A stretch of DNA of 32,000 bases, from assembly GCA_030167145.1 (NCBI GenBank), contig CP126532.1:1890001-1922000 (forward strand), read 5' to 3'. The first letter of the stretch is position 1, and the number at the start of each line of letters is the position of its first letter. Of the stretch, positions 7,527-28,483 are shown piece by piece. A program made the translations under genes and the position numbers. The stretch comes from Ktedonobacterales bacterium (GTDB taxonomy: Bacteria > Chloroflexota > Ktedonobacteria > Ktedonobacterales > JADMIN01). The notes under the pieces are model-generated. The model searched no databases and was not told the origin of the DNA. It was given only the letters and a program-made list of their open reading frames with translations.

Positions 7527-9563
7527 TTAGTCTGCGTTGAGTGCTTTTATCGCGGCGGCGAGGGGTTCGCCGTAGAAGATGGGATCGACTTGCTCAACGA
7601 CATCAGCCGATACCTCTAAGAAGGAGCGCTTATTTTCGCTCGGGATCAGGGCGCGCCGAGCGCCGTTATCCATGGCAACCTGAAGTAGCTCAGCGAGTGA
7701 GCGCGGAGGCAGGATGTTGCCTTGAATGGTCAGATCGCCGATGACAACGAGTGCTGGACGTACTGAGCGTTCCTTGATGGCGGAGTAGAGCGCAATGAAG
7801 AATGCGATGCCAGCCTGGGCGCGCTGACCCGAACCGGTGAGGTCAACGGCTTGAACATGGTAATCGTAGCTGGCAAGATCACGATCTACCCCCAGTTCGC
7901 GGGCACGCGCACGCATGTAATCATAGGCGGTGGTCAGTGAGGCTTTGGTAGCAGTGTCAGGGCTGCCAGTAATCTTGAGTTTGCCGCTGCCGTTGCCAAT
8001 TTTGCCCACTTCGATGCGGTGGAGCGCGACCTTGTCTTCGTCAGTGAAGGTGGCGGAGTAGATGCTTCCGGGCGGAAGGGGGTCAGATGAGATGAGATCG
8101 CGGCCACCCTCCTCAGGTACACCGACAAAGTACTCTTGCATCGTTTCGTGGTCGATATACGAAAAGCTGGTCTGATAGTACTCGAAGGAGCCGAGCTTCT
8201 TCAGTTGCTCTTTGACCCGCCGGCGCCCTTCCAACGCGAACTCCAGATAGTCGCGCAGCTCGCCAGGCGTGACCTGACGGTCGGGATGAAGCAGTTTCAC
8301 CAGCCCCGAGACGGTCTTGCGGACGGCTTTGGCATCACGCGTATTGAGATGTGCGCCAAGGGAAAAATGGGTATCAATGATATCGGTAAAGTTTTGCTTG
8401 CGTAGCTCGCGGACGGCCTCGGCAAGATAGTCTACGACGAAGCCATAGCGTTCGGTTTGGAGGTGCGTTGCCATTTTCGGCATCTCCCAACCGGGCAGAT
8501 AGTAGTGAAGGCGATCAATGAACGCCATGTCGTCACGCATGGCGTCAGGCAATGGCGCGAAGAGATGCGACGTTCTGACAAGCACATCAATAGGTTGGTT
8601 GGTATTGCCCAGGAAGACCATTGAGGCATCGGCGCCTAATTCTTCGCGCCCACGGCTGAACGAACCGGATTCCATGTAATCTTTGAGGATCTGGATAGCG
8701 GATGTGTCGCTGAATTGGATACCAGCAACTTCGTCGAAGGCGACGACGTCCCAGAGGCCGACGAGTCCCATCTTGCCGGTGCCCATGTTGTAGAAGAGGT
8801 TGGCAACGGTGGTTTTGCCGCCGGAAACGAGAATGGCATAGGGAGTGGTTTCGCGGTAGATGAAGCTTTTGCCGGTGCCGCGCGGACCTAGCTCGATGAA
8901 GTTATAGTTGCGCTCGATCATCGGGATGAGGCGTGCGAGGAAGAGCAGCTTGAGGCGCCACTGCATGCCGTCAGGTTCGATGCCGATGCTGCGGAGTACG
9001 AGGTCGGCCCACTCGCTGGTGGTGAAGTGCTGGCGCGCTTCGACGTAGTCGGTGAGGGTGAAGCCCGCGAGTTGGATCGGCTTGAGATCGGTGACGTAGA
9101 AGGGATGGCTCTTGGGATCGTCATCTTTGTCGTCGCCGCGATAGTCGAGGTTGACCTGTGCCCAGATGCCGCCTTCGAGCAGGCGCGGATACTGGCGGAC
9201 GAGGTGGTCGGGGACATGGAGGTAGCGATTGCCGAAGTTGGCCATCTCGCCCCAGTCATCTTTCTCGGTGGAGCGCACGCGGATCTTGTCTATGTAGACG
9301 CCCTGGCCGCGGTCCTTGACGGCGAACATCGCTTTGTTGGCTTCGTCGGGGCGGATGAAGTTTTCGGAGAGGGTGAAATTGACGAGGCGCAGACCAGCTT
9401 GAATGGCGGCGGGGTCATCGGTCGCGCAGTATTTGCCCAGCAGGTATTCGAGGACATAGACCGGTACATTGGCACCGACTTTGACCGCGTGGACGAGGTC
9501 TTTGCGGACGACTTTGCCGGCGAAGATATCCGTGACTTTGCGGTCTAGCTCTGACGCGGACAT
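7527..9563 (-). CDS. brxL: BREX Lon-like protease/ATPase BrxL
   Basis: N-terminus DIFAGKVVRKDLV..VPVYVLEYLLGKYC, Walker A GPRGTGKS and a C-terminal Lon-protease-like region (VIGDLTIQGNILP). It is the last gene of the cluster, directly after pglZ. Confidence 0.9.
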   Translation of the reverse strand: MSASELDRKVTDIFAGKVVRKDLVHAVKVGANVPVYVLEYLLGKYCATDDPAAIQAGLRLVNFTLSENFIRPDEANKAMFAVKDRGQGVYIDKIRVRSTEKDDWGEMANFGNRYLHVPDHLVRQYPRLLEGGIWAQVNLDYRGDDKDDDPKSHPFYVTDLKPIQLAGFTLTDYVEARQHFTTSEWADLVLRSIGIEPDGMQWRLKLLFLARLIPMIERNYNFIELGPRGTGKSFIYRETTPYAILVSGGKTTVANLFYNMGTGKMGLVGLWDVVAFDEVAGIQFSDTSAIQILKDYMESGSFSRGREELGADASMVFLGNTNQPIDVLVRTSHLFAPLPDAMRDDMAFIDRLHYYLPGWEMPKMATHLQTERYGFVVDYLAEAVRELRKQNFTDIIDTHFSLGAHLNTRDAKAVRKTVSGLVKLLHPDRQVTPGELRDYLEFALEGRRRVKEQLKKLGSFEYYQTSFSYIDHETMQEYFVGVPEEGGRDLISSDPLPPGSIYSATFTDEDKVALHRIEVGKIGNGSGKLKITGSPDTATKASLTTAYDYMRARARELGVDRDLASYDYHVQAVDLTGSGQRAQAGIAFFIALYSAIKERSVRPALVVIGDLTIQGNILPPRSLAELLQVAMDNGARRALIPSENKRSFLEVSADVVEQVDPIFYGEPLAAAIKALNAD

Positions 9564-9592
9564 GGGCAGGTATCCTCTCTTCTCAGTGTCGT

Positions 9593-12208
9593 TTAGAATA
9601 GAATGTCCAGATCAATTTCGTCGAGACGTTGTAACTCGCGTCCGGTGGTGGCATCGAGCAGGTGGATGGAGACGCGCTGTGGCGGCAGGTGGTCGCGCTC
9701 GATATGCAGGATGGCGGTGTCGGGCGCTATGGTGAGCGGGTCATCATCCTGAAAGCGCGGTTGTATCTCACCAGTGGCTTCACTATAGCCGTAGTCTGCG
9801 GCAACCAGCCGGGAGATGATGTCGCTCCCCGCGCGAATCTCGACCCGCACGGGCGGGAGCGCGGTGTCGAATAAGCTGACGCGCTGCCCGGCGATCTGGA
9901 CGGAGCAGACACGGGAGGTGATTTTCTGCGAGCCAAGGGTGAGTCGCCATGCAATCTCGCGCCCCTCGCTGCTCGCGAGTGCTGCCGCGCGCGCCGTTGG
10001 GGTGATCACGACGACGGGAATCGCCATTTCTTGGGGGGATAGCCCGCCGTGGAAATAGGCGCGCGCGCCTCCGGGTAGTTTGAAGGCGCCAAAGCCCCAG
10101 GGTGTGGCAAGCTCCAGATCGGTGTCGTCCAGGTCGAAGGCGGCCAGCGGCGCGCGCAGATAGGCTTCGCTGGCAGCGCCACCACGCCCGATCCAGACAC
10201 GACGGTGCAGGTCGCAGGTGTGGCCGCCGGGTGGCTCAATTTTCATGTCGCTGCCGAGTTCATCACTGAAGAGAAAGCCGTGGTCGGCGGTGACGATGAT
10301 CTGTTTGCAGTGCAGCTCACTCAGTCGGCGGACGCCGCGCACCAGATTGGCGAGCAGTGCGTCCATGACGGTGTGCGCGAGGCTGATATTGTCCAACTCG
10401 CAAATGGCGTCAATTTCTTGTGAGGTAACGAGGATCAGGTCAGCGTCTTCGATGTTTTTCTTTACGGCATTTTGGGTTGTGAGCAGAGCATCAAGCGTGG
10501 TTGCAAATACGCGTGTCGGGCGGTGGGCGGTGGATGGGACCTGTTCTTTGAGCCATTTGATGCGGCTGTCGCGGTCGCGCAGGACGGTGTCACGCAGGTG
10601 CAGGGCAAGATTGCCATTGGGGGCGGGCACAACCTTCACCCCTTCTTCGGCGCCAGGGAGGAGCGCGGCCATACCAATGGGCGTGATGGTGGGTACGGTA
10701 CCTGCGGCAACGGCGAGGCGCGCGTCGTACCAGTCACCCAGGCTCTGGACGAAGATGCGCGCCATCTCATAGCGCAGGGCATCTACCAGGATGTATGCGG
10801 TTTTGCCAGCGCGCAGCGCTTCGGTGACATGGCGTGTGTAGATCTCGGTCTGGCGCTGGATGCCCGGAAGTTGGAAGCCTGCGTCCACCAGCGCATGGGT
10901 ATAGCGCACCGCAAGGGTATCGCCGACGCGCATGTACCGCTGGCGGGCGTGGGTGAGGAGCTGTTCGAGGGTGGGGTGGCGCGCGATGGACTCAAAGCGA
11001 CGGCTCTGTTGCTCTAGCTCGCGCTGGAGGGTATCTAGCTCGCACCAGGGGCGCTCGCCGTCGGTGTACGCATGCAGGATAGCGGCCGCCGAGAGGGTAG
11101 CGTGCTGGAGCGCGGCTTCGATCTCTGCCGCGCACAGCAGGAGGTTGCCCGCCGTGGCGCTGAGGGTCCAGCGGTCGTAGGCGTCAGGCAGGCGCTGCGC
11201 CCAATAGTCGCGCTTGCGCTGCTGGATGAGGTCGAGCAGTGTGGTGGATGGCGCGTCGCGTAGCGTGGTCTCCAGGGCGGTTTGGAGCGCGGTTTCGATG
11301 GCGGCGAAGGTTTCGCAGTCGCGTAGCTGCGCAAGGTCGAAGGGAATGCTGGACAGGCCAAGTTCGCGCTCGACGCGGTTGGCGTAGTCGGCATAGCTGT
11401 CGGCGAGGTCGCGCGTTTGGCGCCACCGCCGGACGAGCCGGAGGCACGCCTCACGCGGAGCCAGCTCCGTGGCAATGTTGACGGTGGCAAGCTGTGGAGG
11501 AACCGGCGGGTGAAGGCTGGCGAGAAGTTCAGTACACAGGAGGTGGCGCGCGAGACGCAGGCGCAACGTGGGGAGCGGCTCATCTGGCGGTAGCGGAATG
11601 CCGTAGGTTTCGCCAAGCAGCGCCGTGAGGTCGGGTTGAGCGTGTTTGGCGGCGATCTCGGTGTCGAATGTGTCGCCGGAGAGCAACTTGAGCGCCACTT
11701 CGTCGGGTATACCCGTGCCGAAGATGACGGCGATGACGCCGTGCGCTTCGGGGCTGCTGACGTGATCGCCGAGGCGATCCAGGTCGGCGAGGGAAAGCTG
11801 CCCTTCGTTGGCCTGCTTTTCGATGCGCTGAGCGTGTTCTACGCCGAGTACGTCTTTCAGCGCGGCCTTGGCGATGACTGAGAGGCGGGTGTTGCGCTGC
11901 CAGGGCTGCTGGCCGGGCTTGAGAACGACGCCAGCGGCGGTCAGTTCGATGAGCGCATCGTGGGTGTCGTCTTCAGCGAGGGGCACGTAGACGACGAGGC
12001 GCGGCGGCTGTTCGCCCTCCAGTAGCGGCGCGACATCGTGGCGGAGTTGAAAGAAGCTGCCTGCGTAGCGGGCGATGGTGGTATCGGGGAGGGTGAGCGC
12101 GGAGGCGAGGTCGCTATAGTGTCGTTCGGGGTCGAACCAGACGACGAGCCGCTTTTCGGTGACCTGTTTGGCGATCAGGTCGCGTAGATAGTCGCTGACG
12201 ATTCCCAT
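9593..12208 (-). CDS. pglZ: BREX alkaline-phosphatase-superfamily protein PglZ
   Basis: 871 aa with the PglZ core landmarks AYILVDALRYEMA and IIVTADHGF. It lies between pglX and brxL as in type-1 BREX. Confidence 0.9.
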   Translation of the reverse strand: MGIVSDYLRDLIAKQVTEKRLVVWFDPERHYSDLASALTLPDTTIARYAGSFFQLRHDVAPLLEGEQPPRLVVYVPLAEDDTHDALIELTAAGVVLKPGQQPWQRNTRLSVIAKAALKDVLGVEHAQRIEKQANEGQLSLADLDRLGDHVSSPEAHGVIAVIFGTGIPDEVALKLLSGDTFDTEIAAKHAQPDLTALLGETYGIPLPPDEPLPTLRLRLARHLLCTELLASLHPPVPPQLATVNIATELAPREACLRLVRRWRQTRDLADSYADYANRVERELGLSSIPFDLAQLRDCETFAAIETALQTALETTLRDAPSTTLLDLIQQRKRDYWAQRLPDAYDRWTLSATAGNLLLCAAEIEAALQHATLSAAAILHAYTDGERPWCELDTLQRELEQQSRRFESIARHPTLEQLLTHARQRYMRVGDTLAVRYTHALVDAGFQLPGIQRQTEIYTRHVTEALRAGKTAYILVDALRYEMARIFVQSLGDWYDARLAVAAGTVPTITPIGMAALLPGAEEGVKVVPAPNGNLALHLRDTVLRDRDSRIKWLKEQVPSTAHRPTRVFATTLDALLTTQNAVKKNIEDADLILVTSQEIDAICELDNISLAHTVMDALLANLVRGVRRLSELHCKQIIVTADHGFLFSDELGSDMKIEPPGGHTCDLHRRVWIGRGGAASEAYLRAPLAAFDLDDTDLELATPWGFGAFKLPGGARAYFHGGLSPQEMAIPVVVITPTARAAALASSEGREIAWRLTLGSQKITSRVCSVQIAGQRVSLFDTALPPVRVEIRAGSDIISRLVAADYGYSEATGEIQPRFQDDDPLTIAPDTAILHIERDHLPPQRVSIHLLDATTGRELQRLDEIDLDILF

Positions 12209-12261
12209 TGCTGTGCTGTTCCCTCTCGACTCACGTACTCGTTCACGCGGCGTTATGCGCG

Positions 12262-12291: not shown

Positions 12292-12324
12292 TGTTTATAC
12301 GCGCGCTCATAACCGCTCATAAGT

Positions 12325-14436
12325 CTATTTGCCCTTCACGTAGCCCTTCGCGCGCAGTTGCTGGCCGATGGAGGACCAGTCGTATTTGCCGGTAAGCAGT
12401 TGTTGCCATGCTGCTTTGGCTTCTTTCCATGGTATCACTTCGCAGAAGGGGGCGATGTTGAGGAGCACGCCGTCGTTGAGGTCGGGGGTGAGGTAGTGGC
12501 GGGCGGCGCGGTCGAGGGCGTCGTGAAATTCGCGCAGGTCGGCGAGCAGGGTTTCTTGGCGGTCCAGGGCCTGGGCGGCGCGCCGGGCTTCGGGGCCGGT
12601 GGGTCCGGCGGCGGCTTTGGCGGCGTGTAGTTCGTCGAGGCGCTGTTCTTCGAGCCGGATTTTGGGCAGGAGGTGGAGGGTGAGGGCTTTGAAGATGAGG
12701 TCGGCGTCGAGGCGGTGGTAGTAGAGCCAGATGGCGTAGTGGCGTTTGGGGGATTGCAGCAGCCAGTAGATGGGGGCTTTGCGGCGGCTCTTGGAGTAGC
12801 GCGAGATGTGGAAGTCGAAGAAGAGGCGCGGGTTGCGGAGATATTCGCGCAGGTCGCGCACGCCGAGCAGCGCGCAGGCTTCGGCTTCGATGGCGCTGGC
12901 GCGGTCGCCCCAGAGGTGATCGAGGACGAGGCGGATGCGGCGCAGGAGGTCGTTGGGGGCGTCGGGGTCGTCTACGAGGATGCCGTCCCAGGCGATACCT
13001 AACCCCCCGGCCCCCTTCCCTGCGAGGGAAGGGGGAGTGGAGGGGGCGTCGAGCGTGGTGGGGTCGGGGAGGGTGATGGCGTTGGGACGGGTGCGGAGCC
13101 AGGCTTCGCTGGCGATGTGGTCGCGGGTGGCGGGGAGGCCGTCGTGGCCGACCAGCGCGCCGGGGGCGCAGACGGGCAGCGGGGCGAAGGGGTCGGCAAG
13201 GCGCGGGGCGAGCGTGGGGTCGTGGGCGATACGCACGTCCCAGCGGCCAAAGGCGCAGCCGAGGGCGTACATGATGAGGTTGGCAGCTTCGGTGCGGGCG
13301 CGCTGAAGTCCGTTGCCGGCATTGGCGTTGGATTGAGCATCGCGCTCTTCGTCGCGGTCGTCGCCAGCTTCGTCGCCAGTCGCCACGGCTCCTACTTCCG
13401 CTGGCGGCGAAGATGCCTCGATATGGGCGCGATCATCGGGGGAGAAGCCGTAGAGGGCGTAGCAGCGGTCATCTATCTCGCGCTGGATGGTGGCGAGGCG
13501 CTGGACGCGGGCGGCGTCTGCGTTGGCGAGGAGGCTGAGGGCGGCGGCGAGGGTGGGCTGGGCGCGCAGGCGGACGAGCGCGGGGACGGTGAAGGGGTGG
13601 GTGACTTCGTCGTCGCGGTCAGATTCCCGCTTGCAGTCGTGGGCCTCGCGGGCGAGGGTGGCGAGGGTGTGCGCGTCATCGGCGCTGAGGTCGGGGACGG
13701 GGGTACGCTGGACGACACCGACTTCGTAGGAGCCGAACGCCATTTGCATCGAGAGCAGCGCGCCGAAAGAGGCTGAGTTGACCATGGCGAGCAACGCGAG
13801 GAGATCTGTCGGCTCGTCATCTGAGACGAATAGGGCCGGGCCTTTGTCGGCGAAGATGCAGCCAGCGGGCATGACGCGCACGCTGAAGCCGCCTTGCGTG
13901 CGGCGGGGGTAGGTGAGGCCGGGGCGGAAGTAGTAGTCGAGGGCCTCGGGGCGCTCTATCTCGCGACCGGGGCGTCCATAGAAGTTGCGGTAGGTGTGGC
14001 GCGATTCGTCCCAATCAGCAAGTAGGTGCATATCGTAGTAGAAGGGCGAATAGCTACCGCCTTTCGCAAATGTTGCCCATCTGATGTTCCAGCTAACTGT
14101 AATGGGTAATACCTCCCACCACGTTCGAACACGTTGGAAATCATCGCCAGTGCTTGAGCCTCGGCGCGCCTCACGTCCATCCCCTTCGAAGGGCGGGAGT
14201 TCGGTGAAGAGTCGGCGTACATCCTCGCTGACCCAGTAGGCGAAGGGGGAGCCGGGGATCTGGCGGAAGGAGGCGGGGTCGAGGGTGAAGAGACCTAACC
14301 CCCCCAGCCCCCCTTCCCTACGTGGGAAGGGGGGAGTGGTGGCGGCGCGGTGGGCGGCGGTGGCGGCGCGTAGGGCGGCGGGTTTGTCGTCGGCGGCGAG
14401 GAGGCGGATGAAGGTGGTGGTGTGGGGCATGGTCAT
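12325..14436 (-). CDS. pglX: PglX C-terminal half (post-methyltransferase / putative specificity region) as a separate ORF
   Basis: ATG 14436 with AGGA 7 nt upstream. IPGSPFAYW, TGDDFQRVRTWWEV, KAPIYWLLQSPKRHYAIWLYYHRL and YDWSS are colinear with the region after the MTase domain of the intact paralogue (IPGSPWVYQ, SGNSRFLRFWWEV, KRPIYWLLQSPKRGYGVYLF, YDWSR). No internal stops over 703 codons. Confidence 0.8.
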   Translation of the reverse strand: MTMPHTTTFIRLLAADDKPAALRAATAAHRAATTPPFPRREGGLGGLGLFTLDPASFRQIPGSPFAYWVSEDVRRLFTELPPFEGDGREARRGSSTGDDFQRVRTWWEVLPITVSWNIRWATFAKGGSYSPFYYDMHLLADWDESRHTYRNFYGRPGREIERPEALDYYFRPGLTYPRRTQGGFSVRVMPAGCIFADKGPALFVSDDEPTDLLALLAMVNSASFGALLSMQMAFGSYEVGVVQRTPVPDLSADDAHTLATLAREAHDCKRESDRDDEVTHPFTVPALVRLRAQPTLAAALSLLANADAARVQRLATIQREIDDRCYALYGFSPDDRAHIEASSPPAEVGAVATGDEAGDDRDEERDAQSNANAGNGLQRARTEAANLIMYALGCAFGRWDVRIAHDPTLAPRLADPFAPLPVCAPGALVGHDGLPATRDHIASEAWLRTRPNAITLPDPTTLDAPSTPPSLAGKGAGGLGIAWDGILVDDPDAPNDLLRRIRLVLDHLWGDRASAIEAEACALLGVRDLREYLRNPRLFFDFHISRYSKSRRKAPIYWLLQSPKRHYAIWLYYHRLDADLIFKALTLHLLPKIRLEEQRLDELHAAKAAAGPTGPEARRAAQALDRQETLLADLREFHDALDRAARHYLTPDLNDGVLLNIAPFCEVIPWKEAKAAWQQLLTGKYDWSSIGQQLRAKGYVKGK
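12997..13037. repeat. GC-hairpin repeat element, single copy, in frame in the pglX C-half
   Basis: ACCTAACCCCCCGG + CCCCCTTCCC-TGCGA-GGGAAGGGGG, translated as TPPSLAGKGAGGLG. Confidence 0.85.
14293..14336. repeat. GC-hairpin repeat element, single copy, in frame near the N-terminus of the pglX C-half
   Basis: ACCTAACCCCCCCAG + CCCCCCTTCCC-TACGT-GGGAAGGGGGG, translated as PPFPRREGGLGGLG. This is the long tract class (C7, C6/G6). Confidence 0.85.
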
Positions 14437-14970: not shown

Positions 14971-15048
14971 GGTACCCATCCTCTCCGCGAGTTCAAGGGC
15001 GAACGTCTGTCGCGATCATGCCAACAGTATGAGTATGGCGACGATAGT

Positions 15049-21913: not shown

Positions 21914-22139
21914 ACCTATCCCCCTGGCCCCCTTCCCTACGAGGGAAGGGGGGAATGTACCTATCCCCCTGGCCCCCTTCCCTACGAGGGAAGGGGGAAG
22001 ACGGACCTATCCCCCTGGCCCCCTTCCCTACGAGGGAAGGGGGGAATGTACCTATCCCCCTGGCCCCCTTCCCTACGAGGGAAGGGGGAAGACGGACCTA
22101 TCCCCCTGGCCCCCTTCCCTACGAGGGAAGGGGGAAGTG
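21914..22139. repeat. tandem array of 5 GC-hairpin repeat units filling the DUF559-brxC spacer
   Basis: Units start at 21914, 21959, 22005, 22050 and 22096, so periods alternate 45/46 bp (a 91-bp higher-order unit). Each unit is ACCTATCCCCCTGG + CCCCCTTCCC-TACGA-GGGAAGGGGG. The spacers alternate between AATGT and AAGACGG. Confidence 0.95.
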
Positions 22140-22538
22140 TTAGTGTGCGGCGTCGGGCGCTGGTGGCGCTGATGTCCGACAGGCGGCGGCGATGCGTGCG
22201 AGAACGCTGGGCAGATCGCGCTGGATGTCGTGATTGGATATGCGCAGCACGCGCAATCCATGGCCGACGAGCACTTGATCTCTCTCTGTATCATACTCCA
22301 CCTGCTCGTTGTGAATGCTACCATCCACTTCGACGACAAGTGCGGCTGCGTGACAGTAGAAATCCACGATAAATCCGGCGATCACTTGCTGACGCCGGAA
22401 GTGAAGCCCTTGCAAGCGATTCGCGCGCAGCCAGTGCCAGAGCAGTTCTTCCTCCTCAGTCATCGCCGCCCGAAATGCCCTGGCTTGTTCCACCTTCACT
22501 GGCGCCACTCGCTGTCCACGGACGATCTTTCGTGCCAT
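22140..22538 (-). CDS. DUF559 (Vsr-like / PD-(D/E)xK fold) endonuclease-domain protein
   Basis: EEELLWHWLRANRLQGLHFRRQQVIAGFIVDFYCHAAALVVEVDGSIHN...DQVLVGHGLRVLRISNHDI matches the DUF559 pattern (LW..LR...FRRQ..ig.yivDF.c....lviElDG..H...D..Rd..L...G..vlRf). Confidence 0.85.
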   Translation of the reverse strand: MARKIVRGQRVAPVKVEQARAFRAAMTEEEELLWHWLRANRLQGLHFRRQQVIAGFIVDFYCHAAALVVEVDGSIHNEQVEYDTERDQVLVGHGLRVLRISNHDIQRDLPSVLARIAAACRTSAPPAPDAAH

Positions 22539-22597: not shown

Positions 22598-22620
22598 ATG
22601 GTCTTGACCTGTTTGGACTA

Positions 22621-22648: not shown

Positions 22649-25600
22649 TCACCTCTCCTCCCCCTTCCCTCCCAGGGAAGGGGGCTGGGGGGTTAGGTCC
22701 GTCTCCCCCTTCCCTCCCAGGGAAGGGGGCTGGGGGGTTAGGTCCGTCTCCCCCTTCCCTCCTAGGGAAGGGGGCTGGGGGGTTAGGTCCGTCTCCCCCT
22801 TCCCTCCTAGGGAAGGGGGCTGGGGGGTTAGGTTCTGCGCGATGGCGTAGCTCTGGTTCGCGCGGCAAGCGGCGAGGACGCGGTCGGGCCAGTAGCGCAT
22901 GGCGGTGCGGGACCAGTCGTAGTCGCCGCGCTCCAGCGCCTGCCAGCATTGCCGGGGTTCGGTGGACCAGGCGGGCATGAGGGTATGAAGCGGGGCGAGG
23001 TTGATGAGGATGCCGTCGTCTAGCTCTGGCGCCCAGCCGGTCGTCTCGCCGCGCGCGTTGGGCTGGGTGGTGACGGCGGCGAGGGCTTTGTCGAAGGCTT
23101 CGAGGTCGTTGAGGGTGGATTCGAGCGCTTCGAGGGCGCGTTCGGCGCGGCGGCGCTCGGCGCCCTGGGGCAGCGCGGGCAGGCGCTGGCGCTGCTCGGC
23201 GATGTCGCGCCGGACGGAGGCGATGCGGCCGCCCAGGTAACGGCTGCCGCGCAGCAGGTGCAGGGTGTCGCGGGTGACGCATTCGGCGAAGAGGTAGACG
23301 CCGTAGCCGCGCTTGGGCGATTGCAGCAACCAGTAGATGGGGCGCTTACGATAGCGTTTGTGGTGGTCTTTGAAGAAGTCTTTGGCGAGCCAGTCGTGCA
23401 GCGGGCGCCCGCCAGTGGCGGTGGCGAGCAGGCCCTCGACCTTATCGTCGCCGAGCAGGACTTCGAGCACGTGGGTGACGCGGGCGGCGAGGTCGTCGGG
23501 GTGGCCAGGATCGAGTACGGCGATGGGGGACCCCTCCCCCAGCCCCTCCCCCACAGGGAGAGGGGAGTTGAGAGTGAGGGGGGTAATGGCGAGGCTGGCG
23601 GCTGGGGGTGTGCCATCGGGCGCAGGGAGCGGTGCGACGCCGTTGCCAAGCGCGCCAAGGATGCCGGGGGAGAAGCGACCGAGGGCGATGCCGACGGCGT
23701 AGCTGACCCAGCGCGCGGCGAGGGATGACCTATCCCCCCCGGCCCCCCTTCCCTGGGAGGGAAGGGGGGAGAGAGAGGCATGCGCGCCGTTTGCGCAAGA
23801 TTCGCCATCTGCGCTATTGATGGCATCCGCGTCCGCGTCCGCTTCTTCGTATTTCTCCGCGTCACGATCATCGCCAGCCAGCGCCGCCGCCTCGTCTTCC
23901 TCCTCCCCCTCACGCGCCCCACCTGCTAGCGCCGCCGCCACCTCGTCTTCCTCCTCCCCCTTCCCTCCCAGGGAAGGGGGCTGGGGGGATAGGTCCGCTT
24001 CGATGGCGGCGCGGTCTGCGGGGCTGATGTCGTAGAGGCGGTAGACTTCTTCGTTTATTTCGCGCTCGATGGCGGCGAGCTCGGCGTGACGGGCGGCGAC
24101 GCGGGCCAGACCATCGGGCCAGGCGGGCGGGGCGACGAACTCGTAGGTGGTCTCGTCTTCGGCGCTGTCGGCGCGGGCGAGGGCTATCGCCCGCTCGACG
24201 AGGCCGCGCAGGGTGTCGCTGGACACGGTGGGGATGGGGAGACGCTTCAGATCGCCCAGGTAAAAGTGAAACGTTGGATTCAGCACCGCAAGTAAGTGAT
24301 TAGCAACTGACGAGTTCAATATGCCAAGCAGCTTATATAAAATGCTGCTCTGCTCAGAGAAAATACAGTTGCCTGCATGATCAAAGAGAAAGCCAGCAGG
24401 CATGTAGCGTATGCTTAAACCTTTGGATGTGAGATCAGTGAAAGTCAGTCCTTGGTGGAAATAGAGTTGTCTGCTTGGAAGTTTGTTGCCTCTTTCGGAA
24501 AGAATGCGGAAGTGGGGCAAGTCGTAAGCAATTACAAATTCTTGGTTACCCCACCAGCGTCGGAACTCACCGCCCTTCATATGTGGAAACCACCGCTTCC
24601 CTGTGTACCAGGCTTCCTCGGCAGATGTGCAACCGAATCCAATACTAGAAATGCCTACCTCCCACCAGAATCGCAAGAAACGCGAATTTCCTGATGTTGC
24701 CAGCCCTTGTCGCGGATTAGCACTATTGACAAGTTTAGGCAAATTAGCGAAGAGTGATCGTAGAGACGGGGTTATTTGGTAGACCCAGGGGGAGCCGGGG
24801 ATGGCATCGAAGTCGCGCTGGCGGTAGGCGTAGACGGCGGGGTCGGTTGCGCCAGCCTGGAAGGCGGCGACGGCACGCTCGAAGCCACGGCGCTTGGCTT
24901 CGGCGTCGGGTTCGCGGACGAGGCGGATATACCTGCCGGTGGCGTGGTCGCGGCGGGCGGCGTCGGGTTCGGCGCGGAGGACGAAGAGGGTAGTGTTGAC
25001 TATCTCGCCGTCGATCTCGGCAAAGGCGCGCGGGCCGACGTGGATCATCGTTTCGATGGCGGTCAGGTGGCGCAGCTTGTCGCGCAGCGCTTCGTAGCTG
25101 CTGATGAACATGAACGACTGCTGTGTAATCATCGCCAGCCGTCCGCCGGAGGCGAGCATCTGTGCGCAGCGGTCAATGAACGCGGCGTAGAGGTTGTCTT
25201 CGGATGCTGGAAATTCCACTTCCAGATATTTGCGCATGGTGGCTGACATGTTGTCGCTACCCATATAAGGCGGGTTGGCGGCGACGACATCGTAGCGGCG
25301 GAGCATCACGTCGAGCAGGCGCATGCCCTTGACGGCTTCGCCGGCGAAGTAGGCCTGGTCTATGCCTTCGCGGGCCTGCTGGCGGGCGAATTCGTCGAAG
25401 GCCTGGACGATCTGCGCTTCGAGGATGCCCCAGTATTCGTCGTCGTCGGCGTCTTCTTCGAAGAGCGTGCGCAGCTCGGGGAAGGGCAGGCGCCCCTGGC
25501 CTTCGAGGCGGAAACGCTGGCGTTCGGCCAGGATGATGGCGCGAATCTCGTCTTCGAGCCGCAGCAGCGAGCCAAGCTGGTTGGCGTCGCGCAGGCGCTG

Positions 25601-27004
25601 CCAGACGGCGCGAATCACGCGCTCGTAGATCGGGCGCGAGAACTTCGCCGTGTCAATAAACGCATCCAGACGCTTGCCGTTGAGCAGCAGCACATCGGCG
25701 CAGGCGAGGTTGCTGTGGCGGATGGTGACGTGAGGGTTAAGCGCGGCGGCTTTGAGATAGAGCGTCAGCGCGGAGAGCTGCACGGCGCGCAGGTCAATAT
25801 CTATGCCGAAGAGGTTGTGCTCGACGATGGCGGCGGGAATCTCACTGGCGTCGGGCACGGGTGGCGTCGCGGGCCAGCCTGGCTCACCGGCGCGCTCGAT
25901 CTCCTCCTGATACATCGCCGCGAAGAGATCGAAGGCGACCAACCCAAAGTGCATCGTGCCGCAGGCCGGATCCAGCAGCGTCATCTCCCGCACCGACCTC
26001 ATTCCCTCTCCCCCCTTCCCTCCTAGGGAAGGGGGGCTGGGGGGGTTAGGTTCCGCTCCCCCCTTCCCTCCTAGGGAAGGGGGGCTGGGGGGGTTAGGTT
26101 CCGCTCCCTCCTTCCCTCCCAGGGAAGGGGGGCTGGGGGGGTTAGGTTCCGGGACGAGCGAGGTGAGGGAGTCGCGCAGGCGGCTGTCGGGGTGCATCTG
26201 GAGCCAGAGGCGGCCAAGGGAGTTTTCGACCAGCGCGCGGACAATCCAGCGCGGGGTGAAGAGTTGGGTTGCGGCGGGAATCTCGCTGGCGGTGATCTTC
26301 GCGCCTTTGTTCAGCCGGGCAAAGACCTCGGCTTTCTCCTGCTCGTTGAAATACTGATAGATCCAGCCGATGGTTTCGTCGTCGGCCCAGGCGGGGGCAA
26401 CGTCGGCGGCGTTGACCAGCGCGAGCAGGCTGGCGAGGGCGCGGGGGCGCGGGCAGAGGCGGCTGGGGAGGTCGGTGGGGTCGAAGAGCGCGCGAATCTG
26501 GCTGGCCATGGCGGCGCAGAGGTGCAGCAGGTAGTGGCGATAGGCGGTGTCGCGCGGGCCTTCGCCGAGGGCATCGAGCGGCAGCGAGCCAGATTCATAG
26601 CGGGCGTAGTCGTCTTCGTGGCCCGGCTCGGTGAGCCAGAGCATGAAGCCGCCGGACTGCTGGCCCTTGCCGACGCTGGCCTTGATGAGCTTGCGGGCTT
26701 CGAGCATCTTGAACGCGGAGACGCGGTTGAGCCAGGTGTAGGCGACCTCTTTGGTGAGCTTGGCGACGGCCTCGCGCGGGGTGAGTCCGGCGGTCTTTTC
26801 GTCGGCCAGCAGACGTTCTAAGCGGGCACGGGTGTCGCGGGCGTCGGATAGCTGCTGGATGGCGGGGAGGGTATCGGCTGGCTCGAAGCGGCCATCGCGA
26901 TGCAGGCCATAGACGCCTTCGAGGAGGTCGGTTGTCTCGGTGGTGAGCAGGTGGCGGGCGTCGAGGGTGAGGTCGTGCAGGCGGGTGCGGAGCGTACTTT
27001 CCAT
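22649..27004 (-). CDS. second, intact PglX-like N6-adenine methyltransferase (1451 aa) between brxB and brxC
   Basis: The start is set at ATG 27004 (MESTLRTRLHDL...), because the 1640-aa ORF extension overlaps brxB. ETIGWIYQYF, FTPRWIV, motif I LLDPACGTMHF, motif IV VVAANPPYMG, IPGSPWVYQ, RFLRFWWEV, PIYWLLQSPKR and YDWSR are present. It contains 10 in-frame repeat copies, including a 4x C-terminal LTPQPPSLGGKGETD tail. Confidence 0.85.
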   Translation of the reverse strand: MESTLRTRLHDLTLDARHLLTTETTDLLEGVYGLHRDGRFEPADTLPAIQQLSDARDTRARLERLLADEKTAGLTPREAVAKLTKEVAYTWLNRVSAFKMLEARKLIKASVGKGQQSGGFMLWLTEPGHEDDYARYESGSLPLDALGEGPRDTAYRHYLLHLCAAMASQIRALFDPTDLPSRLCPRPRALASLLALVNAADVAPAWADDETIGWIYQYFNEQEKAEVFARLNKGAKITASEIPAATQLFTPRWIVRALVENSLGRLWLQMHPDSRLRDSLTSLVPEPNPPSPPSLGGKEGAEPNPPSPPSLGGKGGAEPNPPSPPSLGGKGGEGMRSVREMTLLDPACGTMHFGLVAFDLFAAMYQEEIERAGEPGWPATPPVPDASEIPAAIVEHNLFGIDIDLRAVQLSALTLYLKAAALNPHVTIRHSNLACADVLLLNGKRLDAFIDTAKFSRPIYERVIRAVWQRLRDANQLGSLLRLEDEIRAIILAERQRFRLEGQGRLPFPELRTLFEEDADDDEYWGILEAQIVQAFDEFARQQAREGIDQAYFAGEAVKGMRLLDVMLRRYDVVAANPPYMGSDNMSATMRKYLEVEFPASEDNLYAAFIDRCAQMLASGGRLAMITQQSFMFISSYEALRDKLRHLTAIETMIHVGPRAFAEIDGEIVNTTLFVLRAEPDAARRDHATGRYIRLVREPDAEAKRRGFERAVAAFQAGATDPAVYAYRQRDFDAIPGSPWVYQITPSLRSLFANLPKLVNSANPRQGLATSGNSRFLRFWWEVGISSIGFGCTSAEEAWYTGKRWFPHMKGGEFRRWWGNQEFVIAYDLPHFRILSERGNKLPSRQLYFHQGLTFTDLTSKGLSIRYMPAGFLFDHAGNCIFSEQSSILYKLLGILNSSVANHLLAVLNPTFHFYLGDLKRLPIPTVSSDTLRGLVERAIALARADSAEDETTYEFVAPPAWPDGLARVAARHAELAAIEREINEEVYRLYDISPADRAAIEADLSPQPPSLGGKGEEEDEVAAALAGGAREGEEEDEAAALAGDDRDAEKYEEADADADAINSADGESCANGAHASLSPLPSQGRGAGGDRSSLAARWVSYAVGIALGRFSPGILGALGNGVAPLPAPDGTPPAASLAITPLTLNSPLPVGEGLGEGSPIAVLDPGHPDDLAARVTHVLEVLLGDDKVEGLLATATGGRPLHDWLAKDFFKDHHKRYRKRPIYWLLQSPKRGYGVYLFAECVTRDTLHLLRGSRYLGGRIASVRRDIAEQRQRLPALPQGAERRRAERALEALESTLNDLEAFDKALAAVTTQPNARGETTGWAPELDDGILINLAPLHTLMPAWSTEPRQCWQALERGDYDWSRTAMRYWPDRVLAACRANQSYAIAQNLTPQPPSLGGKGETDLTPQPPSLGGKGETDLTPQPPSLGGKGETDLTPQPPSLGGKGEER
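22658..22833. repeat. tandem array of 4 GC-hairpin units (45-bp period), inverted relative to the 21914-22139 array, forming the C-terminal tail of the pglX paralogue
   Basis: Units start at 22658, 22703, 22748 and 22793. Each is CTCCCCCTTCCC-TCC(C/T)A-GGGAAGGGGG + CTGGGGGGTTAGGT. Two copies have loop TCCCA and two have TCCTA. 45 bp equals 15 codons. Confidence 0.95.
23529..23567. repeat. diverged variant of the hairpin element (CCCCTCCCCC-ACAG-GGGAGAGGGG), in frame
   Basis: GACCCCTCCCCCAG + CCCCTCCCCC ACAG GGAGAGGGGAG, translated as LNSPLPVGEGLGEGSP. It has the same tail-plus-hairpin layout and one stem mismatch. Confidence 0.6.
23728..23771. repeat. GC-hairpin repeat element, single copy, in frame
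   Basis: ACCTATCCCCCCCGG + CCCCCCTTCCC-TGGGA-GGGAAGGGGGG, translated as LSPLPSQGRGAGGDRS. Long tract class. Confidence 0.85.
23954..23994. repeat. GC-hairpin repeat element, single copy in the opposite orientation, in frame
   Basis: CTCCCCCTTCCC-TCCCA-GGGAAGGGGG + CTGGGGGGATAGGT, translated as DLSPQPPSLGGKGEEE. Confidence 0.85.
26008..26150. repeat. tandem array of 3 GC-hairpin units (48-bp period), in frame, directly upstream of MTase motif I of the pglX paralogue
   Basis: Units start at 26008, 26056 and 26104. They belong to the long tract class (C6/G6 stem, G7 tail). 48 bp equals 16 codons (PNPPSPPSLGGKGGAE). The third copy has one C>T change in the C-tract. Confidence 0.95.
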
Positions 27005-27108
27005 TGCGTGACGTGTCCTTCTCTTTCCAGTGTCGTACTCTCGTCGTTGTCTCGTGGTTTGCTCGTCGTACTCTCGCCGTTCATTTCTCAGCGAGCGCAT
27101 GATGACGA

Positions 27109-27690
27109 TCACCCGTAGACTTTGACGCGATAGTTGCCCATGGCCTCGCGGTTCTTGAGATCCATGAAGCGCAGGCCGACGGTACCCTCGAGTGTGCCGG
27201 GGTAGAAGAGGATGGCGGGGACGGCGGTGCGGCGCTGCATCTCGTCGAGTAGCCGCGACATCTGGTAGATGGAGGGCGCCATGGCTGAGGCGCGGGTGAG
27301 GAAGACGAGGTCGCGCTGCGGATCGAAGGGGCGCATGCGCTCGGCCAGGGTATCGGGCAGGGGCCGCCAGAAGGGATGGGAGAGATAGGTCGTCGCCTGC
27401 TCCTCGGCGGCGGCGAAACCACTCATGCGCTCTAGCTCTACCAGCGCATCCAGTCCTTCGGTCTGCGCGATGGTTTCCCAGAGCAGGCCAGCGAGCGAGA
27501 TGGTGTGAACGCGCTTGCCGGTCTGTGCGAGACTGTCGGCGAGCAGCCGGGCGCGGCGGCGCATATCCCACTCGGCCTCTGGCTCGTAGCGCAGGATGGC
27601 GAACGGGAGGTCGGTATGGTTGGCGATGCGCATCGGCGTGGCGGTGAGGTCGCGTTCGAGCAGGTCAAAGCGGTCTTTGAGTGAGAGCAT
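27109..27690 (-). CDS. brxB: BREX protein BrxB (DUF1788)
   Basis: 193 aa. MLSLKDRFDLLERDL...LPFAILRYEPEAEW...HTISLAGLLWETI resembles the DUF1788 family. GAGGAG lies 7 nt upstream of the ATG. It overlaps the brxA end by 26 nt and follows brxA as in BREX-1. Confidence 0.8.
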   Translation of the reverse strand: MLSLKDRFDLLERDLTATPMRIANHTDLPFAILRYEPEAEWDMRRRARLLADSLAQTGKRVHTISLAGLLWETIAQTEGLDALVELERMSGFAAAEEQATTYLSHPFWRPLPDTLAERMRPFDPQRDLVFLTRASAMAPSIYQMSRLLDEMQRRTAVPAILFYPGTLEGTVGLRFMDLKNREAMGNYRVKVYG

Positions 27691-28483
27691 GCGCGTACTC
27701 CTCTAGCGAACGGGTAGGAAACTCAACGCGGATGACCCGTCCAGCGGCTTGATAGGTGAGCAGGCGCTCCTGGTGCGCTTCGAAGAAGAGCAGTTCGACG
27801 GCGGGCTGCGCGAGGAAGAAAAGCTGCCAGGATGGGTCGTGCAGCAGCTTCGCGCCGGACGGCTGGTCGCGGCTGAGCAGCAAGGCGAGCAGGGCGAAGG
27901 CGGGTGGGGCAAGGTAGATGGGGCCGAGCCGCTTCGCGACCTTGCCTTGCAGGATGCCGAAGTCGCGCAGCGTTGCCAGCAGCCCGACTGCCAGGCGGCG
28001 GATGGTGACATCGGACCATGGGCGCTGTGTTTTGCCAGCGGCCATCTGTTCGTTGAGCCAGCGCACCACGTCTTCGGGTCGCACGAGGGTGTGCCCACGG
28101 GCGAGCATCGGCCCCAGCAGATCCAGCACCACATCGCGGAGCAGCGGGTCGGTGCGTGTCGCCAGCACGTACAAGATGGGGTCCAGGAGCGAACTGGGGG
28201 CACTAGAACTGGAACTGGCAAGGGTCACGAGCATCCGCAGGATCTCGGGGTCGGTGAGATAGCGCTCGCGGAAGATATCGAGCATCTCGGGGATGCGGGA
28301 ACGCGAGGCCTTGGCGAAGATGTTGTCGGCGCGCATGCGTTCCAAGTTGGCGGGCACAGTGGCGGAGAGATCCCAATGGGCGAGCATGAGTTTGGTATCG
28401 GGTAGGAGCGCGCCGACGTGATTGATGCGGGTGGAATAGCGTTGGGAGTGCTGGGAGTGCCCGGATTTAGCCGTGACTGCCAT
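27665..28483 (-). CDS. brxA: BREX protein BrxA (DUF1819-like), first gene of the locus
   Basis: 272 aa. YSTRINHVGALLPDTKLMLAHWDLS...NIFAKASRSRIPEMLDIFRERYL is consistent with DUF1819/BrxA. Its position immediately upstream of brxB supports the call. It is longer than I expect for BrxA. Confidence 0.7.
   Translation of the reverse strand: MAVTAKSGHSQHSQRYSTRINHVGALLPDTKLMLAHWDLSATVPANLERMRADNIFAKASRSRIPEMLDIFRERYLTDPEILRMLVTLASSSSSAPSSLLDPILYVLATRTDPLLRDVVLDLLGPMLARGHTLVRPEDVVRWLNEQMAAGKTQRPWSDVTIRRLAVGLLATLRDFGILQGKVAKRLGPIYLAPPAFALLALLLSRDQPSGAKLLHDPSWQLFFLAQPAVELLFFEAHQERLLTYQAAGRVIRVEFPTRSLEEYAHALTQRPL

What the first reader, a model, noticed from the sequence alone, without database searches (positions are those of the whole stretch)
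7527..28483. BREX type-1 backbone with a second, divergent PglX paralogue between brxB and brxC
Seen: the minus-strand order is brxA, brxB, pglX-like (22649-27004), DUF559, brxC, HEPN-like, pglX N-half, orf140, pglX C-half, pglZ, brxL. Established: the canonical type-1 order in the Goldfarb et al. 2015 classification is brxA-brxB-brxC-pglX-pglZ-brxL, with a single methyltransferase. Both paralogues keep the PglX landmarks (ETIGWIYQYF, DPACG, NPP[YF], IPGSP[FW], R[FV]..WWEV, PIYWLLQSPKR, YDWS). They are strongly diverged elsewhere, so this is not a recent tandem duplication. Inference: three readings are possible. It could be a dual-specificity BREX in which two modification motifs share one BrxC/PglZ/BrxL machinery. 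It could be a replacement in progress, with the intact copy compensating for the split one. Or a PglX-like plus DUF559 module could be nested in BREX as its own R-M-like unit. I know of no described BREX subtype with two PglX genes.
Basis: partly seen in the sequence, partly recalled or inferred. Interest (0 to 1): 0.8.

Follow-up and report, generated by a model that had tools for sequence, protein, structure and literature searches.

The report
BREX locus with two PglX methyltransferases
This is a BREX anti-phage locus with two complete DNA-recognition methyltransferases (one a single gene, one naturally split into two genes), and the same pairing recurs in many related genomes, so it is a conserved design that probably lets one defence machine watch two DNA motifs.

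Summary
On the minus strand the order is brxA, brxB, full-length pglX ("pglX2"), DUF559, brxC, HEPN, pglX N-half, orf143, pglX C-half, pglZ, brxL. The source is a Ktedonobacterales MAG.

The interpretation needs revising:
- **The split PglX is not a broken gene.** The break sits at the MTase/TRD hinge. Stand-alone N-halves and C-halves are large families. Both halves are under purifying selection.
- **pglX2 is a classical PglX.** It belongs to the E. coli/Salmonella clade, and its orthologues are the only PglX in canonical BREX-1 loci.
- **The pairing recurs.** A fused classical PglX plus a split-clade PglX occurs on at least 10 independent contigs, in two gene orders. The two paralogue trees match each other.
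- **A related design exists.** Anaerolinea-type loci carry one MTase half and two TRD halves. Those two halves differ in the TRD and are near-identical in the C-terminal part.
- **DUF559 and orf143 are variable cargo.** HEPN is a recurrent accessory gene.

Best reading: a conserved dual-PglX BREX-1 variant with two specificity modules on one BrxA/B/C/PglZ/BrxL chassis. "Replacement in progress" and "nested R-M unit" are not supported. There are no methylome or expression data. Rating: new variant of a known kind.

The parts
27665..28483 (-). brxA
   Evidence: PADLOC BrxA 104 bits; Pfam BrxA 81.6 bits
27109..27690 (-). brxB
   Evidence: PADLOC BrxB 101 bits; Pfam BrxB 48.4 bits
22649..27004 (-). 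pglX2: full-length, fused PglX of the classical (E. coli BrxX / Salmonella PglX) clade. Motif I is DPACGTMHF and motif IV is NPPY. It carries in-frame REP insertions.
   Evidence: NF033452 802 bits against a cut-off of 500. PDB 9ewz/8zek/8c45 at E about 1e-105. Motif I is conserved across the clade, including loci with a single PglX. dN/dS 0.16.
26008..26151 (.). In-frame array of 3 x 48-nt REP-like palindromic units inside pglX2, between the N-terminal bundle and MTase motif I
   Evidence: Absent from the orthologues.
22658..22833 (.). Array of 3.9 x 45-nt REP-like units that forms a lineage-specific C-terminal tail of pglX2. It is the inverted partner of the 21913-22137 array.
22140..22538 (-). 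DUF559 (Vsr-like PD-(D/E)XK endonuclease fold) gene, bracketed by inverted REP arrays. Variable cargo, not a conserved BREX part.
   Evidence: Pfam DUF559 115.8 bits. Present at the same position only in L057, at 41% identity. Absent in L014, L017, L019, L056, L058, L061.
21913..22137 (.). Array of 4.9 x 45/46-nt REP-like units that fills the whole DUF559-brxC spacer
18245..21913 (-). brxC
   Evidence: PADLOC BrxC 779 bits; NF033441 712 bits against a cut-off of 400
17409..18221 (-). HEPN (RiboL-PSP-like) accessory gene. Its stop overlaps the start of the PglX N-half.
   Evidence: Pfam 25.5 bits (cut-off 28.4); the A. thermolimosa homologue scores 29.5 bits. RRNDIVHR is invariant in 7 homologues. 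It recurs between brxC and the following pglX gene in L007, L014, L016, L017, L019, L021, L057, L058, L060, L061. dN/dS 0.13-0.16.
15049..17409 (-). PglX N-half: N-terminal helical bundle plus gamma-class N6-adenine MTase domain (DPACGSGHF, NPPF). The 'M-like' subunit of a naturally split PglX.
   Evidence: PDLC02527 positions 1-659, 719 bits. NF033452 383 bits, ending at profile position 610. Aligns to 8c45 up to about residue 612. 107 of the 120 best homologues are 640-830 aa. dN/dS 0.18-0.20.
14548..14979 (-). orf143 (140 aa in the NCBI call): small basic protein of unknown function between the two PglX halves. Lineage-restricted cargo.
   Evidence: No Pfam, NCBIfam or PADLOC hit. Homologues occur only in L017 and L058, at the same position. 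dN/dS 0.23.
12325..14436 (-). PglX C-half: TRD plus helical spacer plus C-terminal domain. The 'S-like' subunit of the split PglX. It contains two in-frame REP units.
   Evidence: PDLC02532 418 bits; PDLC02527 positions 666-1264. NF033452 positions 656-1208. Aligns to 8c45 residues 649-866 and 1024-1211. About 70% of the best 150 cluster representatives are stand-alone proteins of 575-800 aa. dN/dS 0.21-0.23.
9593..12208 (-). pglZ
   Evidence: PADLOC PglZ 342 bits; Pfam PglZ 63.6 bits
7527..9563 (-). brxL
   Evidence: PADLOC BrxL 934 bits; TIGR02653 956 bits

Best explanation
The locus belongs to a recurrent, conserved variant of type-1 BREX. One BrxA/BrxB/BrxC/PglZ/BrxL chassis carries two complete PglX recognition-and-methylation modules from two deeply separated PglX clades.

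- **Module 1, pglX2.** A fused, classical PglX placed between brxB and brxC.
- **Module 2, the split PglX.** It sits after brxC and HEPN. It is naturally divided at the MTase/TRD hinge into an MTase subunit (N-half) and a specificity subunit (C-half: TRD, spacer, C-terminal domain). This resembles the M and S subunits of a Type I system.

**Shown here:** gene identities, the position of the split, recurrence of the pairing, co-diversification of the two paralogues, and purifying selection on every piece.

**Inferred:** both modules dock on the shared BrxB/C/PglZ complex. Each methylates its own non-palindromic motif on host DNA, and each senses that motif when it is unmethylated on incoming DNA. 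The system would then watch two motifs, which makes it harder for a phage to escape by losing a motif or by partial methylation.

**Accessory genes.** HEPN is a recurrent accessory RNase-type gene. DUF559 and orf143 are variable cargo that landed in permissive gaps of the operon.
For: **Identity of the parts**.

**The split maps to the hinge.**
- The N-half ends at about residue 612 of 8c45, and the C-half aligns from residue 649.
- On the NF033452 profile the N-half ends at position 610 and the C-half starts at 656.
- Published BrxX structure: MTD 211-650, hinge 638-675, TRD 651-837 (PMC11842806). The isolated PglX C-terminal domain resembles Type I specificity subunits (PMC11341690).

**The split form is a family, not decay**. 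PADLOC holds separate N-half-only and C-half-only models.

**pglX2 is a working-type PglX.**
- Its orthologues are the only PglX in canonical loci L001, L003, L004, L020, L023, L025.
- Its unusual motif I is conserved across the clade.

**The pairing recurs.**
- Window-like order: L017, L019, L056, L057, L061.
- Window-like order, partial contigs: L014, L058.
- Decayed: L055.
- Alternative order (both copies after brxC): L022, L027, L060.
- Sources.
- Of 8 context look-ups seeded only with N-half homologues, 5 showed a second fused PglX, 1 showed a decayed one and 2 showed none.

**The two paralogues diversify together.** NJ trees of the two paralogues have matching topology.

**Purifying selection.** dN/dS is 0.16-0.23 for all PglX pieces, against 0.04-0.28 for the backbone.

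**Multi-TRD use in the same lineage.** Anaerolinea thermolimosa-type loci have one N-half and two C-halves. The TRD parts are 22-59% identical and the C-terminal parts are 88-100% identical.

**Published mechanism.** PglX/BrxX determines the motif for both methylation and defence, and needs the BrxBCXZ complex (PMC11842806, PMC11341690).
Against: - There is no methylome, expression or interaction data for this organism or any relative. 'Two motifs' and 'shared chassis' are inferences.
- TRD sequence cannot tell me the motifs. The two modules could in principle recognise the same or overlapping sites.
- pglX2 in this genome carries several REP-derived peptide insertions that might impair it, although all of them keep the reading frame.
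- dS is about 1 or more (near saturation), so the dN/dS values are rough.
- The trees are simple NJ trees without support values.
- The census rests on about 60 loci, not on a systematic survey.
Confidence: 0.6

Rival explanations
1. Division of labour rather than two equal specificities. One module (for example fused pglX2) does maintenance methylation and ordinary BREX sensing. The HEPN-coupled split PglX is a separate sensing arm that triggers an RNase-based abortive response, or acts as a back-up or decoy when a phage inhibitor disables the first PglX.
For: - HEPN always sits directly upstream of the PglX gene that follows brxC, and its stop overlaps the N-half start in the window.
- The two-clade pairing is conserved in two different gene orders. 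That suggests the two clades are not interchangeable.
- Auxiliary or back-up nucleases inside BREX loci are documented (PMC12839542).
Against: - HEPN is absent from some two-PglX loci (L022, L056) and present next to a single fused PglX (L021).
- Both modules keep full catalytic motifs (NPPY/NPPF, motif I) and full TRD/CTD parts. Nothing marks either one as methylation-dead or sensing-only.
Confidence: 0.15
2. Replacement in progress or decay. One of the two PglX copies (the split one, or the REP-riddled pglX2) is non-functional and the other compensates.
For: - Individual loci do decay. In L055 pglX2 is broken into fragments next to an IS200-type transposase and the C-half is fragmented.
- The halves score below the NCBIfam cut-off individually and are annotated as hypothetical proteins.
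- The literature often reads split pglX as 'truncated' (PMC9716671).
Against: - Stand-alone halves are large families.
- In many relatives the two halves overlap or abut as coupled genes (L016, L057, L059, L060).
- dN/dS is 0.16-0.23 for every piece.
- The pair is retained across lineages that are only 47-55% identical.
- All REP insertions in coding sequence preserve the frame.
Confidence: 0.07
3. The second copy is a silent specificity cassette for phase variation or recombinational switching of PglX, as in the known pglX shufflons.
For: - PglX is strongly enriched among targets of programmed inversions, and partial pglX copies are known (PMC9881135).
- L047 shows many pglX fragments on both strands.
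- In Anaerolinea-type loci the two C-halves share an 85-98% identical DNA segment that could support recombination.
Against: In the window:
- both copies are complete and on the same strand;
- they are only 30-35% identical at protein level, and the longest shared DNA stretches are 57-165 nt at 73-77% identity;
- the only inverted repeats are REP units;
- no recombinase or integrase was found in the 32 kb.
Confidence: 0.04
4. pglX2 plus DUF559 is an independent R-M-like unit (methylase plus small nuclease) nested inside BREX.
For: - DUF559 has a Vsr-like endonuclease fold and intact family motifs.
- It recurs at the same position in L057.
- pglX2 also scores well against a PADLOC Type IIG model.
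Against: - pglX2 orthologues are the only PglX of canonical BREX-1 loci.
- pglX2 has the PglX N-terminal bundle and no nuclease domain.
- DUF559 is absent from L014, L017, L019, L056, L058, L061.
- In both genomes DUF559 is bracketed by that genome's own REP-like hairpins, as expected for a mobile cassette.
Confidence: 0.04

Closest known systems
Canonical type-1 BREX (Goldfarb et al. 2015; E. coli HS, Salmonella D23580, B. cereus systems)
   Same: - All six defining genes are present and recognisable.
- pglX2 belongs to the same clade as the structurally solved E. coli BrxX and Salmonella PglX.
- Everything is on one strand and tightly packed.
   Different: - There are two complete PglX modules instead of one.
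- One PglX lies between brxB and brxC.
- The other is encoded as two genes, split at the MTase/TRD hinge.
- HEPN, DUF559 and orf143 are embedded in the operon.
Phase-variable / shufflon-type pglX loci (L. rhamnosus GG, Brevibacterium casei; Milman et al. 2023, PMC9881135)
   Same: - More than one pglX-derived sequence occurs in one BREX-1 locus.
- B. casei also has PglX encoded as two proteins.
- The general theme is diversifying BREX specificity.
   Different: - No inverted partial copies, no recombinase, and no long inverted repeats between the copies.
- Both modules here are complete and only about 30% identical.
- The B. casei split is at the C-terminal end of the variable region, whereas this one is at the MTase/TRD hinge.
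Type I R-M systems with separate HsdM and HsdS, including multi-hsdS loci
   Same: - The split PglX separates the methylase from the TRD-bearing part.
- Anaerolinea-type relatives carry two TRD halves with variable TRDs and a constant part, like alternative hsdS genes.
- The PglX C-terminal domain is reported to resemble HsdS structurally (PMC11341690).
   Different: - There is no HsdR, and the proteins are PglX homologues, not HsdM/HsdS.
- The subunit interaction has not been demonstrated.
- This is a resemblance in logic, not family membership.
BREX loci with embedded accessory defence genes (BrxU/GmrSD in E. fergusonii, PARIS in Salmonella, auxiliary nucleases surveyed in PMC12839542)
   Same: HEPN, DUF559, TacAT, GmrSD and NB-ARC genes are embedded within these loci, as described for auxiliary or back-up effectors.
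   Different: The embedded extra here is a second copy of the core specificity component itself. The gap between the two PglX halves also serves as a landing site for cargo.

Membership tests
BREX type 1 | Presence of brxA, brxB, brxC, pglX, pglZ and brxL in one cluster | tested here: met
   PADLOC, Pfam and NCBIfam hits for all six
BREX type 1 | Canonical order brxA-brxB-brxC-pglX-pglZ-brxL with a single pglX | tested here: not met
   The order is brxA-brxB-pglX2-DUF559-brxC-HEPN-pglXN-orf143-pglXC-pglZ-brxL. Gene order is descriptive rather than strictly defining.
BREX type 1 | PglX is a BREX-1-type gamma-class N6-adenine MTase passing the curated model NF033452 | tested here: met
   pglX2 scores 802 bits against a cut-off of 500. 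The split halves score 383 and 304 bits, each below the cut-off but jointly covering profile positions 1-610 and 656-1208.
BREX type 1 | PglX-dependent m6A of a non-palindromic motif, and phage exclusion | not testable with these tools
   No methylome or phenotype data
Phase-variable pglX shufflon | Partial pglX copies in inverted orientation sharing inverted repeats, with an adjacent site-specific recombinase | tested here: not met
   Both copies are complete and on the same strand. The only inverted repeats are REP units. No recombinase or integrase Pfam hit in the flanks.
Type IIG/IIL R-M enzyme (MmeI-like) | N-terminal endonuclease domain fused to the MTase-TRD | tested here: not met
   The pglX2 N-terminus aligns to the BrxX helical NTD. 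Only MTase-type Pfam domains are found.
HEPN (RiboL-PSP-HEPN, PF18735) | Score above the Pfam gathering cut-off, and a conserved Rx4-6H motif | tested here: inconclusive
   The window protein scores 25.5 bits (cut-off 28.4) and the A. thermolimosa homologue 29.5 bits. RRNDIVHR is invariant in 7 homologues.
DUF559 (PF04480, Vsr-like endonuclease fold) | Score above the Pfam gathering cut-off | tested here: met
   115.8 bits against a cut-off of 20.6
Type I R-M (HsdM/HsdS) | HsdM, HsdS and HsdR family proteins | tested here: not met
   There are only weak MTase-domain matches to Type I models and no HsdR. The analogy is functional only.

The most novel reading that the evidence does not exclude
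The two PglX modules are not just two motif readers but two functionally different arms.
- The fused classical PglX would run ordinary BREX methylation and exclusion.
- The hinge-split PglX, translationally coupled to a HEPN RNase, would be a separable M+S-type sensor. Its specificity half can be exchanged or multiplied, as in the Anaerolinea-type loci with one MTase half and two TRD halves. It would fire an RNase-based back-up response.

This would make the locus a natural two-tier BREX with a modular, Type-I-like specificity subunit.
Probability: 0.15. Interest if true: 0.85.

Novelty: new variant of a known kind. Interest (0 to 1): 0.58.

Why it matters
PglX is the only specificity determinant of BREX. 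How it couples to the rest of the machine is still unclear.

- **A natural split at the hinge.** A natural, conserved form cuts PglX at its hinge into a methylase half and a recognition half. This shows the two 'jaws' can work as separate polypeptides, and it gives a ready-made system for swapping specificities.
- **Multiplexing.** A conserved pair of divergent PglX modules on one chassis, and relatives with one methylase half and two recognition halves, suggest that BREX can handle several motifs at once. That would change how phage escape and the stoichiometry of the BREX complex are viewed.
- **Annotation.** Pipelines that call split halves 'hypothetical' or 'truncated' are likely to under-call functional BREX systems.

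Tried and rejected
- **Goldfarb 2015 not available.** The paper (PMC4337064) is not in the held library. Its statement on pglX duplications is taken second-hand from PMC11842806 and PMC9122589.
- **Literature phrase searches.** Searches for 'second pglX', 'two pglX genes', 'pglX paralog' and similar found no description of this architecture. The 2026 BREX survey mentions no split, paralogous or double MTase. The library is incomplete, so this is weak evidence of novelty.
- **Promoter/terminator scan.** It gave no more sites than shuffled sequence, so I made no operon-break claims.
- **tRNA calls.** The three ARAGORN calls lie inside REP arrays and are artefacts.
- **Rfam.** No hits.
- **orf143.** No family hit, and only two database relatives. 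Its function is left open.
- **Upstream region 28.5-32 kb.** No Pfam-recognisable ORFs. No BrxR/WYL regulator and no recombinase.
- **TRD variability in the pglX2 clade.** The TRD region is only mildly more variable than the rest, so I did not use it as evidence.
- **First REP pattern.** My first search used the wrong loop length and found nothing. The corrected search is.
- **Assembly artefact and fusion of two BREX loci.** Both rejected. The order recurs in independent samples, and there are no remnants of a second brxC, pglZ or brxL.

Full report
**1. What is in the window**

The minus strand between 7527 and 28483 carries eleven tightly packed genes. PADLOC, Pfam and NCBIfam identify them as follows:

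| Gene | Coordinates | Identification |
|---|---|---|
| brxA | 27665-28483 | BrxA |
| brxB | 27109-27690 | BrxB |
| pglX2 | 22649-27004 | Full-length PglX; NF033452 802 bits, cut-off 500 |
| DUF559 | 22140-22538 | DUF559 protein |
| brxC | 18245-21913 | BrxC |
| HEPN | 17409-18221 | 270-aa RiboL-PSP-HEPN-like protein |
| pglX N-half | 15049-17409 | PADLOC PglX profile PDLC02527, positions 1-659 |
| orf143 | 14548-14979 | Small basic ORF |
| pglX C-half | 12325-14436 | PDLC02527, positions 666-1264 |
| pglZ | 9593-12208 | PglZ |
| brxL | 7527-9563 | BrxL |

- The two paralogues are 30-35% identical.
- An exact protein match places the window in a Ktedonobacterales (Chloroflexota) MAG with a 5.07-Mb contig.
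- The flanks are ordinary genes: SDR/glyoxalase, queuosine synthesis, SLT, PhoU.
- No integrase, recombinase or BrxR-type regulator was found.

**2. The 'split' PglX is a natural two-gene PglX, not a broken gene**

*Where the break falls.*
- Against the solved Salmonella PglX (8c45), the N-half aligns up to about residue 612 and the C-half from residue 649.
- On the NCBIfam PglX profile the two pieces cover positions up to 610 and from 656.
- In the E. coli BrxX structure the MTase domain is 211-650, the TRD is 651-837, and flexible hinge loops span 638-675 (PMC11842806).
- The cut therefore separates a methylase 'jaw' from a recognition 'jaw'.

*How common the split form is.*
- 107 of the 120 best database hits to the N-half are 640-830 aa.
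- About 70% of the best 150 cluster representatives for the C-half are stand-alone proteins of 575-800 aa. There are 1241 representatives at E <= 1e-30.
- PADLOC holds separate half-length models, and these are among the best hits.
- In relatives the two halves often overlap or abut (L016, L057, L059, L060).

*Selection.* Against orthologues in L017 and L014, dN/dS is 0.18-0.20 for the N-half and 0.21-0.23 for the C-half. That is within the range of the backbone genes (0.04-0.28). dS is about 1 or more, so these values are rough.

**3. pglX2 is a classical, working-type PglX**

- It matches E. coli BrxX and Salmonella PglX at E about 1e-105. The split halves match them only at 1e-26 to 1e-30.
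- Its 42-49% identical orthologues are the single PglX of canonical brxA-brxB-brxC-pglX-pglZ-brxL loci in Methanotrichaceae, Syntrophaceae and metagenomes.
- Its unusual motif I (DPACGTMHF instead of GSG) is conserved throughout that clade, including the single-PglX loci. It is a clade trait, not a lesion.
- It has no nuclease domain.
- dN/dS against L017 is 0.16.

**4. The pairing recurs and diversifies together**

| Arrangement | Loci |
|---|---|
| Window order: brxA-brxB-fused PglX-brxC-(HEPN)-N-half-C-half-pglZ-brxL | L017, L019, L056, L057, L061 |
| Window order, truncated contigs (end of a pglX2 orthologue directly before brxC) | L014, L058 |
| Decayed copy | L055 |
| Second order: both modules between brxC and pglZ | L022, L027, L060 |

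- Eight context look-ups were seeded only with N-half homologues. Five showed a second fused PglX, one showed a decayed one and two showed none.
- An NJ tree of the N-terminal and MTase regions shows two deep clades. The branching order of the pglX2-type copies mirrors that of their split-type partners: window with L017; L057 and L056; L019; L022 with L027.
- The two genes have therefore travelled together over a divergence down to about 47-55% identity.
- This is hard to reconcile with a transient replacement.

**5. A related design points to multi-specificity**

In Anaerolinea thermolimosa IMO-1 and four or more metagenomic relatives the order is brxA, brxB, N-half, small ORFs, C-half, a 325-aa ORF, brxC, HEPN, a second C-half, pglZ. 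There is only one methylase half.

The two C-halves compare as follows:
- The TRD part is 22-59% identical.
- The C-terminal approximately 300 residues are 88-100% identical at protein level, and 85-98% at DNA level.

This is the pattern of alternative specificity subunits sharing a constant part. It implies that the halves associate in trans.

**6. Accessory genes**

*HEPN.*
- It recurs directly before the PglX gene that follows brxC, in at least ten loci.
- It has an invariant RRNDIVHR (Rx4H) motif and dN/dS of 0.13-0.16.
- Stand-alone HEPN genes in BREX loci have been described as auxiliary effectors (PMC12839542).

*DUF559.*
- It is present at this position only in the window and in L057 (41% identity).
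- It is absent from the closest relatives.
- In both genomes it is bracketed by that genome's own REP-like hairpins. In the window these are inverted arrays of 4.9 and 3.9 units.
- I read it as a mobile cassette.

*orf143.*
- Relatives occur only in L017 and L058, always just before the C-half.

*The gap between the two PglX halves.* It holds different cargo in different loci:
- TacAT in L014 and L058
- GmrSD in L033 and L034
- unknown ORFs in the Anaerolinea type

**7. How it most likely works**

Published work shows that PglX/BrxX sets the motif for both methylation and defence. It also shows that both activities need a BrxB-BrxC-PglX-PglZ complex (PMC11842806, PMC11341690).

My inference has three steps:
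1. The N-half and C-half assemble into a PglX-like heterodimer.
2. That heterodimer and the fused pglX2 each engage the shared chassis.
3. Each marks and monitors its own motif.

The advantage would be denser target coverage and harder escape for phages.

Confidence:
- About 0.9 that this is a conserved dual-PglX variant.
- About 0.6 that both modules are active with distinct motifs on a shared chassis.

Rivals are a functional division of labour (0.15), decay or replacement (0.07), a silent recombination cassette (0.04), and a nested R-M unit with DUF559 (0.04). The evidence for and against each is given in the rival entries.

**8. Comparison with what is known, and novelty**

- The locus passes the gene-content test for BREX type 1, but not the canonical order or the single-pglX description.
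- It is not a shufflon-type phase-variable locus. There are no inverted partial copies and no recombinase.
- It is not a Type IIG enzyme, because there is no nuclease domain.
- Duplications, disruptions and phase variation of pglX have been noted before (PMC11842806 citing Goldfarb 2015; PMC9122589; PMC9881135). A PglX encoded as two proteins was reported for Brevibacterium casei (PMC9881135).
- I found no description of a conserved pair of complete PglX genes from two clades, no description of the hinge-split form as a family, and no description of loci with one methylase half and two recognition halves. The searchable library is incomplete.
- I rate it a new variant of a known kind, with interest 0.58.

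**9. Limits**

- There are no functional data.
- dS is near saturation.
- The trees are simple NJ trees without support values.
- The census is a sample of about 60 loci.
- Motif specificities cannot be predicted from sequence with the tools available.

Noticed in passing
window 13013-26129 (units at 13013, 14311, 21930-22132 x5, 22662-22817 x4, 23746, 23958, 26013-26129 x3): There are sixteen 45-48-nt REP-like palindromic units. The core is CCCTTCCCT-NNN-AGGGAAGGG, and the DNA hairpin folds at -13 kcal/mol (z = -3.5). All sixteen lie inside the BREX locus and none in the other 16 kb of the window. Eleven are in frame inside pglX2 or the C-half, where they encode Pro/Gly-rich loops such as PPSLGGKGE. 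Coding arrays have periods of 45 or 48 nt (multiples of 3); the intergenic array alternates 45 and 46 nt. The unit is absent from all 58 related loci held at that point.
   Followed up: partly
window 21913-22833; L057 4800-5420: The DUF559 gene is bracketed by inverted REP arrays (159-nt arms, 72% complementary). In L057 an orthologous-position DUF559 is bracketed by that genome's own, different REP-like hairpins, which also occur inside its pglX2. This suggests a REP-associated mobile nuclease cassette. It may also explain why DUF559 genes score as 'programmed inversion targets' in PMC9881135.
   Followed up: partly
window 22678-22804 and 26033-26121: ARAGORN calls three tRNA genes (Gly-CCC, Arg-CCT x2) that lie entirely inside the REP arrays within pglX2. 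They are artefacts of the palindromes.
   Followed up: yes
window 14437-15048; L014 7343-8390; L058 7822-9440; L033/L034; L007 12016-13340: The gap between the PglX N-half and C-half genes acts as a landing site for unrelated cargo:
- orf143: window, L017, L058
- TacA/TacT toxin-antitoxin: L014, L058
- a GmrSD type IV restriction enzyme: L033, L034
- two unknown ORFs: Anaerolinea type
   Followed up: partly
L017 21561-22649: The orf143 homologue in L017 is a 362-aa ORF with its small N-terminal domain duplicated in tandem. It keeps the same C-terminal motif (HHDWE...ELG.GIPAQ.GKGRRSR.G.YIP). This is a real but tiny protein family of unknown function.
   Followed up: partly
window 70-1911 (-), tandem repeat 306-729: A 613-aa protein combines an N-terminal TIR domain with a PQQ-like beta-propeller. 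The 120-nt tandem repeat corresponds to the propeller blades. It may be a separate defence-related gene about 5.6 kb from brxL.
   Followed up: no
window 22555-22594 and 27032-27082: Short 11-nt tandem repeats lie just upstream of the DUF559 start (GGCGGTATAAG x3.6 on the coding strand) and of the pglX2 start. Their function is unknown.
   Followed up: no
window 12253-12290: An AT-rich palindrome (TTATGCGCGTTTATACGCGCGCGTATAAG...) lies in the 116-nt spacer between the C-half and pglZ. It could be an operator or promoter for a pglZ-brxL transcription unit.
   Followed up: no
L047 (OIYV01000013.1) 7669-20622: This locus has at least six pglX-derived fragments on both strands next to brxC and pglZ. 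It looks like the classic shufflon-type phase-variable pglX and makes a useful contrast to the window.
   Followed up: no
L027 6997-9960: A 987-aa NB-ARC/TPR (STAND NTPase, Avs-like) gene sits between the two full-length PglX genes of this locus.
   Followed up: no
window 28484-32000: About 3.5 kb upstream of brxA has several ORFs of 100-270 aa on both strands. None has a Pfam hit.
   Followed up: partly
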